NCBI RefSeq assembly: GCF_051903065.1
Contig: NZ_CP178442.1
Direction: 5' to 3' (one strand)
Source: Escherichia coli
GTDB lineage: Bacteria > Pseudomonadota > Gammaproteobacteria > Enterobacterales > Enterobacteriaceae
DNA: 37,672 bases
The notes under the pieces are model-generated. The model had not been told where the DNA came from. It saw only the letters and a program-made list of their open reading frames with translations, and did no database searches. Both the position numbers and the translations under genes were made by a program. Below are positions 33,825 through 36,799 of this stretch, one piece after another (positions within the stretch are counted from its first letter, which is position 1; the number at the start of each line of letters is the position of its first letter).

Positions 33825-34247
33825 ATGATGAAGAAGTTAGTGTTTTTATTGATTTCCATTCTTGCTGGTTGTTCATCACCGCCAGAGCCAACACCCGTGC
33901 AGTTTGAAAAGGCAAATGAAGTGATCAATCCCTCATTGCCATATGTCCCCGATTTTCACGGTGTCATAAAGTCAGACGTTAGCGGTAAAGGATGGGTTTA
34001 TGAGATCACTTCCTTATCCGGAGTACAGGCCAGAACGCCGACGTTTTATTACGCTCTGGCTCATGCGGACAGGATTGTAGTGACAACACATGATGCTGGG
34101 CTGTGGTTTCGAATCAGAGATCTGTTGAAGATGGAAGGGGCAACAGCAGTCGTGGAATGGCGAAACGAGAAAAGTTTTTTACCTGAACAGGGAAAAATAG
34201 TTTTCATTAAAGCACAAAACGAGGTGAAAAATGACTGGAAAAAATAG
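33825..34247 (+). CDS. hypothetical lipoprotein (140 aa)
   Basis: Signal peptide with lipobox LAGC; aggagaacatg RBS. Confidence 0.5.
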   Translation: MMKKLVFLLISILAGCSSPPEPTPVQFEKANEVINPSLPYVPDFHGVIKSDVSGKGWVYEITSLSGVQARTPTFYYALAHADRIVVTTHDAGLWFRIRDLLKMEGATAVVEWRNEKSFLPEQGKIVFIKAQNEVKNDWKK

Positions 34248-34536
34248 AGTGGTTTTACCAGCCTTGCTGGCGTTAGGATTAATATCAACAAATGCTAATG
34301 CATCTGACCCTTGCGCTTCGGTACTTTGCTTATATGGAAAAGCAGTCGGGCAAGGTGGAGGGAGTGAATGCAGAAGTGCTGAAAAGGATTTTTTTAATAT
34401 TCTGAAAAAGAAAAAAGGAAGCATTCGCTGGAGTAAAACTTTTGATGCCCGTAAAGCATTTCTGAATCAGTGTTCAACGGCTGATCCTGCTGCTATATCA
34501 AAAATCATGAGTAAGTTCGGCAAGGTTAAAGGGTAG
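34231..34536 (+). CDS. hypothetical secreted Cys-containing protein (101 aa)
   Basis: Signal peptide (ALLALGLISTNANA), four Cys in mature part; overlaps upstream gene. Confidence 0.45.
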   Translation: MTGKNRVVLPALLALGLISTNANASDPCASVLCLYGKAVGQGGGSECRSAEKDFFNILKKKKGSIRWSKTFDARKAFLNQCSTADPAAISKIMSKFGKVKG

Positions 34537-34541
34537 ATGAT

Positions 34542-34796
34542 ATGGAAAAGCAAACTACTGATTTACTGAATGTAATCAAGACAGGACACTCTGGCTCAAT
34601 AGCTGGTAATCCTGCTCATGCACTGGATGATAAGACTATGAACGCCATCATTCATAACTACGTGGCAACGATTGTGCTCGGTAAAGCAGGTAACTGCAAA
34701 GAAACTCCTCTCACAAAGTATTGTTCGAGGACTATGCCAGAGCGTATTTCAGTTGAAGAAATTAATGAGTTTAAAATTTATCCAGAGTTATTCTGA
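34542..34796 (+). CDS. hypothetical protein (84 aa)
   Basis: Intact ORF 5 bp after previous stop; no recognised motif. Confidence 0.4.
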   Translation: MEKQTTDLLNVIKTGHSGSIAGNPAHALDDKTMNAIIHNYVATIVLGKAGNCKETPLTKYCSRTMPERISVEEINEFKIYPELF

Positions 34797-34892
34797 ACGG
34801 AGATAACGGCAAACGCCGCAGATTCCGGATTTTAATCCGGGATTTGCGGGGTTGAACAACCGAAGGGCGTTAGTTTCCTCGTAATCCATGAG

Positions 34893-35207
34893 GTGTATAT
34901 GAAAGCAAGAAGTGTGAGAGTTGCCGGAATTGAAATTATCGATAGTGTTAAAACGGTCGCTTTTGTTTTTACTGAAACCTTACTGTTTATGGTCTGGTTT
35001 TCGGCAATTGTCTATGGGCTTTATCGTGTTGTTATCGTTTTATGGGATGATCCTTTAAAGCCGCAATCGCTCATGGAATTTCTTAATTTCATAGTTGAGT
35101 TGTATAGCTATGTACTTCCTTCGTTGGCTGTTATCGCAGTGGCTTTAATCGCCGTTTTATCCATTTGTAAAATACTCTCAGCAATATGGGAGGGAAGAAA
35201 GCAATGA
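34893..35207 (+). CDS. hypothetical membrane protein (about 102-104 aa)
   Basis: gaggtg RBS; two or three hydrophobic helices; stop overlaps start of the nuclease gene (ATGA). Confidence 0.45.
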   Translation: MYMKARSVRVAGIEIIDSVKTVAFVFTETLLFMVWFSAIVYGLYRVVIVLWDDPLKPQSLMEFLNFIVELYSYVLPSLAVIAVALIAVLSICKILSAIWEGRKQ

Positions 35208-35698
35208 GACATTTTCTTAAGGCTCTTTCCTTTGTTGTTTCCCTGTTACCAGCTACATTGTGTGCGGCTGAAATCCAGGGGAAAGTTATTCGCGTTCTCG
35301 ATGGCGACACCATAGAAATTAAAACACTACCCGCAAAAATTGTTGTGTATGAAGTTCCGATCCGAGTCCGATTGATAAACATCGATGCCCCTGAAAAGAA
35401 ACAACCTTTTGGACGCTGGTCAACTAGTCAGCTTAAAACTCTGGTTGCAGGTAAACAGGTGACAGTCTCTTATTCACATAAAGACCGCTACGGACGCATT
35501 ATCGGTCATGTGTTCACGACGAACGGCACGGATGCCAGCCGCTTTATGGTTCAGTCTGGCGCTGCATGGGTATATGAACGTTACAACGTGGATGAGTCAT
35601 TACCGGCTCTGCAACGGGAAGCGCAGGAACAAAAACGCGGTTTGTGGGCCGATGCAAATCCGGTTCCACCGTGGGAATGGCGATACAAACATAACTAA
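35204..35698 (+). CDS. secreted thermonuclease / staphylococcal-nuclease-like (SNase) family protein
   Basis: 164 aa with signal peptide (MRHFLKALSFVVSLLPATLCAA) and SNase-like motifs (VIRVLDGDTIEI..., VRLINIDAPE, DRYGRIIGHVF, GLWAD). Confidence 0.65.
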   Translation: MRHFLKALSFVVSLLPATLCAAEIQGKVIRVLDGDTIEIKTLPAKIVVYEVPIRVRLINIDAPEKKQPFGRWSTSQLKTLVAGKQVTVSYSHKDRYGRIIGHVFTTNGTDASRFMVQSGAAWVYERYNVDESLPALQREAQEQKRGLWADANPVPPWEWRYKHN

Positions 35699-35713
35699 CT
35701 GATAGAGGTTTTT

Positions 35714-36118
35714 ATGGCTTTATCACCCAAAGAAAAGAAAGAGTTACAACAACGCTTCGAAAAGCAATTACTACCTGACCTTGATATGTCATTTGAACTA
35801 AATGGCGAAGTATATAAATTTAATTTTGATAAAAATGAGTCAGGTGACTATATCGATAGTTTTACACAAGCAGTATGGGGAGGTTATCAGGATGCCGAGG
35901 AATGGGAAAAATATGGTAAACATCAGGAGACAGAATTACCTGAATGCCCTGAACCAGTCGAGGGTTGGTGCGACTGTGATAAATGTAAGTCGATGATTTT
36001 TCATAAAGAGAAAAATATTTATGTTTGCCTCTCCTGCCATAAACAAACAGAGCCATTTCTTCCAATTGACTGGAACTCAAACGATTACGATTGGCTACCT
36101 TATGAAGATGAATACTAA
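35714..36118 (+). CDS. hypothetical protein with C-terminal Cys-rich zinc-ribbon-like region (134 aa)
   Basis: CPEPVEGWCDCDKC...CLSCHK arrangement suggests a Zn ribbon; acidic C-terminus. Confidence 0.45.
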   Translation: MALSPKEKKELQQRFEKQLLPDLDMSFELNGEVYKFNFDKNESGDYIDSFTQAVWGGYQDAEEWEKYGKHQETELPECPEPVEGWCDCDKCKSMIFHKEKNIYVCLSCHKQTEPFLPIDWNSNDYDWLPYEDEY

Positions 36119-36223
36119 TGCTGAATACTTCACAGTCATAATACAGATTGTTCTTTATTCAAAAGACAACCATCTATTGAAAGTGCATTAGTTATATAAA
36201 TCAGATACTCTTTGGTGGTTATT

Positions 36224-36799
36224 ATGCAATATGCATTAGTTGATGCGCTGGAACGAAAATTTTTGCTGGATGCTCTTGAATTTGGTGTTCTGAAGGACTG
36301 GAAAGAAAATCCGGTAAAAGAACTTCCTGATATTGATGAATCTGCTCACCCCTTCCATGTCTGTTATGGTGGATATTTATTAAATCCTGGTGTTTCAGAT
36401 TCAGATATTAGCAGAAAAATAAAAGACCAGACAGGATTCTGGCTGGCAGCTATTGATGATACCCGCATGGATTGTCATTCAATAGCTTATTATGATATTC
36501 ACACACTCCCTGTGATTTCATGTGGACATCAAAAGATAGTTCCTTTTGCAGCGTTAATAAAAGCTGATGAATGCATTATTTCAAAAATTGCTTCATATTC
36601 TGGTTTTGCCGTAACAGCCTTTTTGAGAATTAAAGACCAGGATATCGCAACTAATATACTTAACCGTGAGGGAATTTTTTCCTTTAATGGCTGTGAACGC
36701 AGATTCAGACATCCAGTAAGTGAAGATAACTGGCAACAGGCAGTATCAGAAGAACGTGCTATCCGTTGTGCAAAAAGATTAATTCAATGTAAAGGATAA
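36224..36799 (+). CDS. hypothetical protein (191 aa; upstream TTG at 36212 is an alternative start)
   Basis: Intact ORF immediately upstream (5 bp) of topB start; no recognised motif. Confidence 0.45.
   Translation: MQYALVDALERKFLLDALEFGVLKDWKENPVKELPDIDESAHPFHVCYGGYLLNPGVSDSDISRKIKDQTGFWLAAIDDTRMDCHSIAYYDIHTLPVISCGHQKIVPFAALIKADECIISKIASYSGFAVTAFLRIKDQDIATNILNREGIFSFNGCERRFRHPVSEDNWQQAVSEERAIRCAKRLIQCKG

What the first reader, a model, noticed from the sequence alone, without database searches (positions are those of the whole stretch)
33825..36799. Accessory cluster between the coupling protein and topB: lipoprotein, secreted Cys-rich proteins, secreted SNase-like nuclease, Zn-ribbon protein
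Seven co-oriented genes of mostly unknown function follow taxB. One encodes a signal-peptide-bearing thermonuclease-family protein; conjugative plasmids sometimes carry such periplasmic nucleases, but their role is unclear. The neighbouring secreted and membrane proteins and the Cys-rich zinc-ribbon protein could form an envelope-associated module (entry exclusion, surface exclusion, or defence against incoming DNA).
Basis: inference. Interest (0 to 1): 0.45.

Follow-up and report, generated by a model that had tools for sequence, protein, structure and literature searches.

The report
IncX4 plasmid backbone between taxB and topB
The seven genes are real, but they are the ordinary, already-sequenced backbone of IncX4 resistance plasmids: two secretion-machine accessory proteins, a membrane protein paired with an exported DNA-cutting enzyme, and swappable genes of unknown role, not one exclusion or defence module.

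Summary
The window is 100% identical to the public IncX4 plasmid pSD11. All seven co-oriented genes exist at the stated coordinates.

The interval is a mosaic of three blocks, not one module.

- **Block B.** ORF4, a two-helix membrane protein, overlaps the start of Nuc by 4 bp. Nuc is a staphylococcal-nuclease homologue with a signal peptide and an intact catalytic site. Homologues occur in more than 5000 plasmids.
- **Block C.** ORF6 is an acidic zinc-ribbon protein. ORF7 is confidently modelled with no structural relative. Both sit in a slot before topB-hha-hns that sister plasmids fill with unrelated genes.

An EexN-family lipoprotein elsewhere in the window is the entry-exclusion candidate. 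Published transposon sequencing of an IncX4 plasmid lists none of the seven genes as needed for transfer.

The single-module interpretation is not supported. Novelty is low, although ORF3, ORF4, ORF6 and ORF7 remain uncharacterised.

The parts
33825..34247 (+). ORF1: 140-aa outer-membrane lipoprotein of the Cag12/CagT family. VirB7-like N-terminus plus a globular domain. First gene after taxB, 8 bp downstream.
34231..34536 (+). ORF2: 101-aa TrbM/KikA/Pep-family exported protein (trbM of Yi et al.). Overlaps ORF1 by 17 bp.
   Evidence: Pfam TrbM E 1.3e-8, 35.5 bits against a cut-off of 21. N-terminal signal sequence ending ANA|SD, and four Cys at 28, 33, 47, 81. Four conserved disulfide cysteines are the family hallmark (PMC13311141). 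The qPCR primers for trbM map here. RT-PCR places it in the pilX operon, and it is induced by PixR (PMC8725589).
34542..34796 (+). ORF3: 84-aa predicted cytoplasmic protein of unknown function. Possibly derived from a VirB11-like fragment.
   Evidence: No signal peptide or TM segment. No family hit above threshold. Weak similarity to the PilX11/VirB11 His-box region (pairwise BLASTP E 0.003; TIGR02788 E 0.019). Found in 298 plasmids, at >=99% in only 110, and at 78-85% in other plasmids of 36-91 kb whose replicon type was not checked.
34812..34853 (+). Conserved hairpin in the ORF3-ORF4 gap. Likely the 3' boundary of the pilX (T4SS) operon.
   Evidence: 20-nt arms. RNA fold of 34790-34905 gives -42 kcal/mol, z -4.0. 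The homologous hairpin shows compensatory changes in IncX5. In IncX3 a shorter stem is followed by a T-run, as in an intrinsic terminator.
34899..35207 (+). ORF4: 102-aa inner-membrane protein with two predicted TM helices. Its stop overlaps the nuc start (ATGA).
   Evidence: Hydrophobic segments at about 19-49 and 61-99. No Pfam, NCBIfam, PADLOC or PHROG family. Homologues occur only on IncX-type contigs. It is always immediately upstream of, and overlapping, the thermonuclease gene in IncX3, X4 and X5.
35204..35698 (+). ORF5 (Nuc): 164-aa Sec-exported staphylococcal-nuclease-family enzyme.
   Evidence: PF00565 E 5e-26. Thermonuclease structures match at E ~3e-8. D35, R56, D61, E64, Y96, R98 and Y124 correspond to SNase D21, R35, D40, E43, Y85, R87 and Y115. 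A signal sequence is conserved in the IncX, IncI1, IncI2 and IncF homologues. Present in more than 5000 plasmid records.
35714..36118 (+). ORF6: 134-aa acidic (pI 4.4) cytoplasmic protein with a C-terminal zinc-ribbon-like Cys cluster.
   Evidence: Cys at 78, 86, 88, 91, 105, 108; the cluster is conserved in the family. Weak match to the aIF2-beta zinc ribbon. Small family of 24 clusters in 313 plasmids, including an identical protein in IncI2. The zinc-ribbon domain alone recurs next to nuc in an IncX-like plasmid (hhalign 99.8%). The database name 'exodeoxyribonuclease V subunit beta' is not supported by any domain hit.
36224..36799 (+). ORF7: 191-aa cytoplasmic protein of unknown fold family. 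Ends 4 bp before topB.
31954..33816 (+). Flank: taxB, the VirD4-type coupling protein.
   Evidence: T4SS-DNA_transf E 4e-94; RefSeq name TaxB.
36804..37672 (+). Flank: 5' part of the type IA topoisomerase gene (topB). It runs off the window end and is followed by hha and hns in the circular record.
   Evidence: Toprim and Topoisom_bac domains. RefSeq annotation of pSD11.

Best explanation
The interval is the ordinary IncX4 backbone between the coupling-protein gene and topB. It consists of three juxtaposed units rather than one system.

**A. ORF1-ORF2(-ORF3): distal genes of the PixR-activated pilX/T4SS operon.**
- ORF1 is a second, 'long' VirB7-like outer-membrane lipoprotein with a CagT-like globular domain. 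It most likely docks on the periphery of the outer-membrane core complex (inferred).
- ORF2 is a TrbM/KikA/Pep-type exported, disulfide-bonded accessory factor. By analogy with pKM101 Pep and RP4 TrbM it promotes productive donor-recipient contact (inferred from homologues).
- Both are auxiliary rather than essential for transfer.
- A conserved hairpin or terminator at 34812-34853 ends this unit.

**B. ORF4-Nuc.** A small two-helix inner-membrane protein is translationally coupled to a Sec-exported, probably Ca2+-dependent SNase-family nuclease with an intact active site. It most likely degrades DNA non-specifically in the periplasm or outside the cell. This would be a conditional fitness function, not part of DNA transfer. 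ORF4 may position or restrain the enzyme at the membrane (speculative).

**C. ORF6 and ORF7.** These cytoplasmic proteins sit in an exchangeable slot directly upstream of topB-hha-hns. They are probably expressed with that DNA-topology and silencing block as accessory cargo. Their biochemical roles are unknown.
For: **Identity.** The window is 100% identical over the cluster to pSD11 and other IncX4 plasmids.

**Unit A**
- One transcription start site upstream of cds9 drives the operon.
- RT-PCR links pilX11, taxB and trbM, and PixR induces trbM (PMC8725589). The primers map as expected.
- ORF2: TrbM hit above the cut-off with four Cys. Homologue functions come from PMC13311141.
- Boundary hairpin.

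**Unit B**
- Catalytic residues are intact and the signal peptide is conserved.
- The 4-bp overlap with a membrane-protein gene is conserved in IncX3, X4 and X5 and in an IncX4 variant.
- R64 nuc is dispensable for transfer (PMC8125031). pOXA-48 nuc is dispensable for stability.

**Unit C**
- The slot is filled by an AAA ATPase, PcfJ, DUF6012, ssb or other hypothetical genes in relatives.
- ORF7 is unrelated to DUF6012.

**Transfer requirement.** None of the seven genes is on the Tn-seq list of 18 transfer-essential genes of IncX4 pHNSHP23. cds4 maps outside the cluster.
Against: - No experiment addresses ORF1, ORF3, ORF4, ORF6 or ORF7 directly.
- The per-gene Tn-seq figure could not be read, so 'not essential' rests on the text list of essential genes.
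- One gene in the PixR-induced block, cds6, could not be mapped to ORF1 or ORF3.
- ORF1's own Pfam score is below the gathering cut-off.
- The IncX4 hairpin has no U-run, so termination is inferred from the IncX3 homologue, not shown.
- R6K's TrbM-like protein did not complement RP4 trbM (PMC13311141). IncX TrbM-like proteins may therefore work differently.
- pCTX-M3 Nuc was reported to aid partitioning, so a maintenance role for Nuc is not excluded.
Confidence: 0.6

Rival explanations
1. One reading: the seven genes form one envelope-associated module that mediates entry or surface exclusion, or destroys incoming DNA.
For: Four of the seven products are envelope proteins: a lipoprotein, an exported Cys-rich protein, a membrane protein and an exported nuclease. 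The genes are co-oriented and tightly packed.
Against: - An EexN-family lipoprotein is encoded elsewhere in the window and is named eex in IncX4.
- The interval is mosaic, with blocks shared independently with IncX3, IncX5 and IncI2.
- A conserved hairpin or terminator splits it.
- Three products are cytoplasmic.
- PADLOC finds no defence system, only a generic SNase domain.
Confidence: 0.08
2. ORF4-Nuc, possibly with ORF6, is a self-contained three-compartment nuclease system. It would comprise a membrane partner, a periplasmic nuclease and an acidic cytoplasmic zinc-ribbon protein acting as inhibitor or regulator. It would attack competing DNA that reaches the periplasm, for example transforming DNA or rival plasmids.
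For: - The gene upstream of nuc always encodes a membrane protein, even where it is not homologous. The 4-bp overlap with nuc was seen in IncX3, X4, X5, an IncX-like plasmid and an IncX4 variant; in IncI2 the two genes do not overlap.
- ORF6 or its zinc-ribbon domain follows nuc in IncX4, IncI2 and an IncX-like plasmid.
- ORF6 is strongly acidic, pI 4.4, as many nuclease inhibitors and DNA mimics are (general knowledge).
Against: - Most Nuc homologues (IncI1, IncF) lack both partners.
- ORF6 is replaced by an AAA ATPase or PcfJ in close relatives that keep nuc. An ORF6 homologue also occurs without nuc beside it.
- No phenotype was found for nuc in R64 or pOXA-48.
Confidence: 0.12
3. Nuc is a plasmid-maintenance factor working with partition or multimer resolution, like Nuc of pCTX-M3 or the SNase-like ParB of the RK2 parCBA operon.
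For: pCTX-M3 nuc, downstream of parB, contributes to stabilising unstable vectors (PMC8125031). RK2 ParB being an SNase-like nuclease is from my own knowledge and was not tested here.
Against: - In the window nuc is not next to par genes.
- All homologues carry an export signal, which fits poorly with action on cytoplasmic plasmid DNA.
- pOXA-48 nuc deletion did not affect stability.
Confidence: 0.08
4. ORF1 and ORF2 are core structural T4SS subunits required for IncX4 transfer.
For: They are co-transcribed with pilX and taxB. They are syntenic with T4CP across IncX. ORF1 resembles the OMCC subunits CagT and VirB7.
Against: - They are not on the list of 18 Tn-seq essential genes.
- A canonical 42-aa VirB7 (PilX7) is present at 28114-28242.
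- RP4 TrbM is described as not forming part of the native T4SS, although it is needed for wild-type conjugation levels.
Confidence: 0.1

Closest known systems
IncX4 plasmid backbone (pSD11 KM212169; pHNSHP23 of Yi et al. 2022, PMC8725589)
   Same: Identical sequence and gene order: taxB, Cag12-family, TrbM, hyp, hyp, thermonuclease, hyp, hyp, topB, hha, hns.
   Different: Nothing differs; the window is this plasmid. Within IncX4 the interval is itself mosaic. Only 110 records carry the whole 2975-bp version, and others have different alleles or genes.
CagT (Cag12, H. pylori Cag T4SS) and the VirB7 lipoproteins TrwH (R388) and TraN (pKM101)
TrbM (RP4/R751), KikA (R388), Pep (pKM101), TivB12 (R6K)
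   Same: Signal peptide, four cysteines, and a Pfam TrbM domain above the cut-off. Encoded with the T4SS genes.
   Different: Only 101 aa, so just the TrbM-like domain, as in R6K TivB12. TivB12 did not complement RP4 trbM (PMC13311141). Adhesin or killing activity is not shown for any IncX member.
Plasmid Nuc proteins (R64 IncI1, IncF, IncI2, pCTX-M3/pOXA-48) and staphylococcal nuclease
   Same: SNase fold family, conserved catalytic residues and an N-terminal export signal. About 55-60% identical to IncI1 and IncF Nuc, and 93% to IncI2 Nuc.
   Different: In IncX it is translationally coupled to a small membrane-protein gene that IncI1 and IncF lack. No enzymatic data exist for the IncX protein.

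Membership tests
Staphylococcal nuclease (SNase, PF00565) family | Domain match above the curated cut-off | tested here: met
   91.6 bits against a cut-off of 21, E 5e-26. Matches PDB thermonucleases at E ~3e-8.
Staphylococcal nuclease (SNase, PF00565) family | Catalytic and Ca2+-binding residues: D21, D40, E43, R35, R87 (SNase numbering) | tested here: met
   All conserved, as D35, D61, E64, R56 and R98. T41 becomes A (a backbone ligand) and Y113 becomes W.
Staphylococcal nuclease (SNase, PF00565) family | Ca2+-dependent nuclease activity | not testable with these tools
   Needs an enzyme assay.
TrbM/KikA/Pep family (PF07424) | Domain match above the curated cut-off | tested here: met
   35.5 bits against a cut-off of 21. 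The match covers only profile positions 10-60 of 156.
TrbM/KikA/Pep family (PF07424) | Signal peptide and four conserved disulfide cysteines | tested here: met
   N-terminal hydrophobic segment ending ANA|SD, and Cys at 28, 33, 47, 81. The hallmark is as described in PMC13311141. The positions were not aligned with Pep or KikA here.
TrbM/KikA/Pep family (PF07424) | Enhances conjugation or contact-dependent killing | not testable with these tools
   Homologue data only. trbM is not on the IncX4 essential list.
Cag12/CagT family (PF13117) | Domain match above the curated cut-off | tested here: inconclusive
   The window protein scores 20 bits against a cut-off of 22.7. 22 of 29 aligned homologues match, best E 5.5e-20.
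Cag12/CagT family (PF13117) | CagT-like fold | tested here: met
VirB7 lipoproteins | Lipobox plus the short VirB9-binding N-terminal segment | tested here: met
   LAGC lipobox. The family profile matches TrwH (E 9e-4) and TraN (E 0.027) over positions 1-39. Binding to VirB9/PilX9 is not testable here.
Entry-exclusion lipoproteins (EexN/TrbK type) | Match of any of the seven proteins to the EexN or TrbK models | tested here: not met
   No such hit among the seven. The EexN model instead matches a different gene at 21587-21820, 68 bits against a cut-off of 33.
Known anti-phage defence systems (PADLOC-DB v2) | Match of cluster proteins to a defence-system model set | tested here: not met
   Only the SNase domain hits one candidate model, 'SNc+LTD' (E 4e-12). 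The other six proteins have no hit.
Zinc-ribbon proteins | Two Cys pairs (CxxC...CxxC) conserved across homologues | tested here: met
   C88/C91 and C105/C108, plus C78 and C86, are conserved in nearly all full-length members of alignment A3. Weak alignment to the aIF2-beta zinc ribbon. Metal binding is not testable here.

The most novel reading that the evidence does not exclude
The ORF4-Nuc pair, with the acidic zinc-ribbon ORF6 as a cytoplasmic partner, is a plasmid-borne nuclease system spanning three compartments that limits entry of competing DNA. The adjacent slot before topB would be a cargo hotspot for establishment or anti-defence genes: ORF7, DUF6012, AAA ATPase, PcfJ, ssb. Either function would be uncharacterised in the globally spread mcr-1 IncX4/IncI2 plasmids.
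Probability: 0.1. Interest if true: 0.6.

Novelty: already known. Interest (0 to 1): 0.22.

Why it matters
IncX4 plasmids, with IncI2, are among the main vehicles of the colistin-resistance gene mcr-1 and, as here, cfr. Showing that this interval is conserved backbone built from separable blocks stops it being read as a new exclusion or defence system. It also picks out four backbone genes (ORF3, ORF4, ORF6, ORF7) and an exported nuclease that still lack any tested function. Any contribution to plasmid fitness or competition would matter for the spread of resistance, but nothing here suggests a new kind of system.

Tried and rejected
- **Mapping Yi et al.'s Tn-seq hit cds4 to the cluster.** Its primers do not match the window. 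They map downstream of parA in mcr-1 IncX4 plasmids, a region replaced by IS26-cfr here.
- **Database names.** 'Exodeoxyribonuclease V subunit beta' for ORF6 and 'DNA topoisomerase III' for ORF7 have no supporting domain or structural match. They are probably propagated misannotations.
- **ORF7 related to DUF6012**, which holds the same position in IncI2. hhalign probability is 0.1%.
- **Structural relatives of ORF7.**
  - BFVD gives nothing.
  - afdb50 was unavailable.
- **ORF7 obligatorily coupled to topB.** Distant homologues sit in other contexts.
- **Rfam, promoter and terminator scans** of the interval found nothing above background.
- **ORF3 as a VirB11 relic.** The similarity is only weak, so this is left as a note.
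- **Supplementary tables of PMC8725589** did not give per-gene data for the cluster.
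Full report
**What the window is.** The 2975-bp interval is 100% identical to several public IncX4 plasmids. One is pSD11 (NZ_KM212169.1), which is 37,672 bp, exactly the window length. It came from swine E. coli, carries cfr, and is typed MOBP/MPF_T. RefSeq annotates the same seven + strand genes between taxB and a type IA topoisomerase, followed by hha and an H-NS-family gene. I confirmed both flanks:
- The upstream gene is a VirD4-type coupling protein (T4SS-DNA_transf, E 4e-94).
- The downstream gene starts with Toprim and Topoisom_bac domains.

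**The observation.** All seven ORFs are present, with ribosome-binding sites and tight spacing. The gaps and overlaps are: 8 bp after taxB; a 17-bp ORF1/ORF2 overlap; 5 bp; 102 bp; a 4-bp ATGA overlap of ORF4 and nuc; 15 bp; 105 bp; and 4 bp before topB.

| Gene | Predicted features |
|---|---|
| ORF1 | Lipobox LAGC |
| ORF2 | Signal sequence, four cysteines |
| ORF3 | No export signal |
| ORF4 | Two hydrophobic helices |
| ORF5 (Nuc) | Signal sequence, SNase domain |
| ORF6 | Acidic, six clustered cysteines |
| ORF7 | Soluble |

Only ORF2 fits that description.

**Unit A: the tail of the T4SS operon.**

Yi et al. (PMC8725589) studied the IncX4 plasmid pHNSHP23.
- They found a single transcription start site upstream of cds9.
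- They showed by RT-PCR from a primer in trbM that cds9, taxB and trbM belong to one pilX operon.
- They showed that PixR induces trbM. Their trbM and taxB primers map to ORF2 and taxB in the window.

ORF2 matches Pfam TrbM above the cut-off. It has the four cysteines described as the hallmark of the TrbM/KikA/Pep family. In that family:
- pKM101 Pep is a surface adhesin-like protein.
- RP4 TrbM boosts conjugation and contact-dependent killing.
- The R6K (IncX2) member, TivB12, is a short, domain-only form that did not complement RP4 (PMC13311141).

ORF1 belongs to a lipoprotein family with an invariant C-S-S-P-P motif.
- 22 of 29 members match Pfam Cag12, although the window protein itself falls just under the cut-off.
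- The family profile matches the VirB7 proteins TrwH and TraN over its N-terminus.
- Homologues sit directly after the coupling-protein or virB11 gene in 2257 plasmid records.
- The window also has a canonical 42-aa VirB7 (PilX7) at 28114-28242. ORF1 is therefore an additional, 'long' VirB7-like lipoprotein.

A strong hairpin lies in the ORF3-ORF4 gap at 34812-34853 (z -4.0). It is homologous, with compensatory changes, to a hairpin after the TrbM-like gene of IncX5. In IncX3 the equivalent is a shorter stem followed by a T-run. That fits an operon boundary at this point.

**Unit B: ORF4 and Nuc.**
- The nuclease keeps the SNase catalytic and calcium-binding residues.
- Homologues are found in more than 5000 plasmid records: 80% identical in IncX3, 93% in IncI2, and 55-60% in IncI1 and IncF. 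All of them have an N-terminal export signal.
- ORF4 has no family assignment. It is confined to IncX-type replicons.
- In IncX3, IncX5 and an IncX-like plasmid, an ORF4 homologue overlaps nuc by 4 bp exactly as here.
- In an IncX4 variant a non-homologous 144-aa membrane protein takes that position, with the same 4-bp overlap. In IncI2 a 217-aa protein with an N-terminal TM segment precedes nuc without overlapping it.
- IncI1 and IncF Nuc lack such a partner.

Experimental data on relatives give no consistent role:
- R64 nuc inactivation does not affect transfer, while pCTX-M3 nuc contributes to stabilisation (PMC8125031).
- pOXA-48 nuc deletion has no effect on stability (bioRxiv 10.1101/2025.01.23.634512).

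**Unit C: a variable slot before topB.**

ORF6 belongs to a tiny family of 24 clusters. Its zinc-ribbon-like motif is conserved. An identical protein occurs in IncI2 plasmids. The zinc-ribbon domain alone recurs next to nuc in another IncX-like plasmid.

ORF7 has 59 homologue clusters and no Pfam domain. Its model is confident (pLDDT 89.5) but has no structural relative in the PDB or BFVD.

Close relatives fill the nuc-to-topB slot differently:

| Plasmid | Genes between nuc and topB |
|---|---|
| IncX4 p6_3214 | AAA ATPase + ORF7 |
| IncX3 | AAA ATPase alone |
| IncI2 p94EC-3 | PcfJ + ORF7 |
| IncI2 psn0606-3 | ORF6 + DUF6012 |
| IncX5 | Four other genes |

In an IncF-typed plasmid, an ORF6-like gene, a hypothetical gene and ssb precede topB, but there is no nuc. 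ORF7 and DUF6012 are unrelated. Distant ORF7 homologues are not next to topB. Only 110 plasmid records carry the whole 2975-bp arrangement, and the same number carry ORF3 at >=99%. The interval is therefore mosaic even within IncX4.

**Against the exclusion or defence reading.**
- The window encodes an EexN-family lipoprotein at 21587-21820, which Yi et al. call eex.
- None of the seven proteins matches the EexN or TrbK models.
- PADLOC gives only a generic SNase-domain hit.
- Yi et al.'s transposon sequencing lists 18 genes needed for transfer: ten pilX genes, taxA, taxB, taxC, tsxA, cds4, cds9, cds10/pixR and cds16.
  - None lies in this interval.
  - cds4 maps downstream of parA in mcr-1 plasmids, cds9 maps to 21997-22173, and cds16 to about 16000-16300.
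- One caveat applies. I could read only the text list, not the per-gene figure, and I could not assign their 'cds6' to ORF1 or ORF3.

**Verdict.** The interpretation as a single envelope module is not supported. The interval is known IncX4 backbone made of three parts:
- two T4SS accessory genes with characterised homologues;
- a widespread exported plasmid nuclease, with an IncX-specific membrane partner;
- exchangeable cytoplasmic cargo upstream of topB-hha-hns.

What remains open is the function of Nuc with ORF4, and of ORF3, ORF6 and ORF7. These are modestly interesting because of the clinical spread of IncX4 and IncI2 plasmids, but there is no sign of a new kind of system.

Noticed in passing
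window 34812-34853: Strong hairpin (20-nt arms, fold z -4.0) in the ORF3-ORF4 gap. It is homologous, with compensatory changes, to hairpins after the TrbM-like gene in IncX5. In IncX3 the stem is followed by a T-run. It is probably the 3' end of the pilX operon.
   Followed up: partly
window 34542-34796: ORF3 (84 aa) shows weak similarity to the His-box region of the plasmid's own VirB11/PilX11 (pairwise E 0.003) and to the VirB11 NCBIfam model. It may be a relic of an ATPase gene fragment. The small ORF in the neighbouring position in IncX5 weakly hits TraG-D_C.
   Followed up: partly
window 35699-36803, compared with L004, L005, L007, L010, L011, L012: The slot between nuc and topB holds unrelated genes in close relatives: AAA ATPase, PcfJ-domain protein, DUF6012, ssb and other hypothetical genes. 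This is the pattern of a cargo hotspot.
   Followed up: partly
L015 3229-3663; L012 3267-3920: The gene upstream of nuc is replaced by non-homologous membrane proteins. In an IncX4 variant it is a 144-aa bitopic protein that keeps the 4-bp overlap with nuc. In IncI2 it is a 217-aa protein with an N-terminal TM segment, separated from nuc by a short gap.
   Followed up: partly
window 21587-21820 and 21997-22173: The EexN-family entry-exclusion lipoprotein gene lies upstream of pilX1. The separate 58-aa ORF between it and pilX1 is cds9 of Yi et al., whose deletion abolished transfer through a polar effect.
   Followed up: yes
window 35714-36118 and 36224-36799: Non-RefSeq records name ORF6 'exodeoxyribonuclease V subunit beta' and ORF7 'DNA topoisomerase III'. 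No domain or structural evidence supports either name, so they are probably propagated misannotations.
   Followed up: yes
L014 3001-3717 (IncF); window 35204 onward: A thermonuclease gene lies directly next to hha in IncF plasmids, and close to topB-hha in IncX4 and IncI2. nuc and the nucleoid-silencing genes recur together in otherwise unrelated backbones.
   Followed up: no
window approximately 4000-13000 (outside the finding): GC content swings from 0.32 to 0.52. The RefSeq record shows IS26 and cfr downstream of hns, replacing the parA-cds4-mcr-1 region of typical IncX4 plasmids.
   Followed up: no
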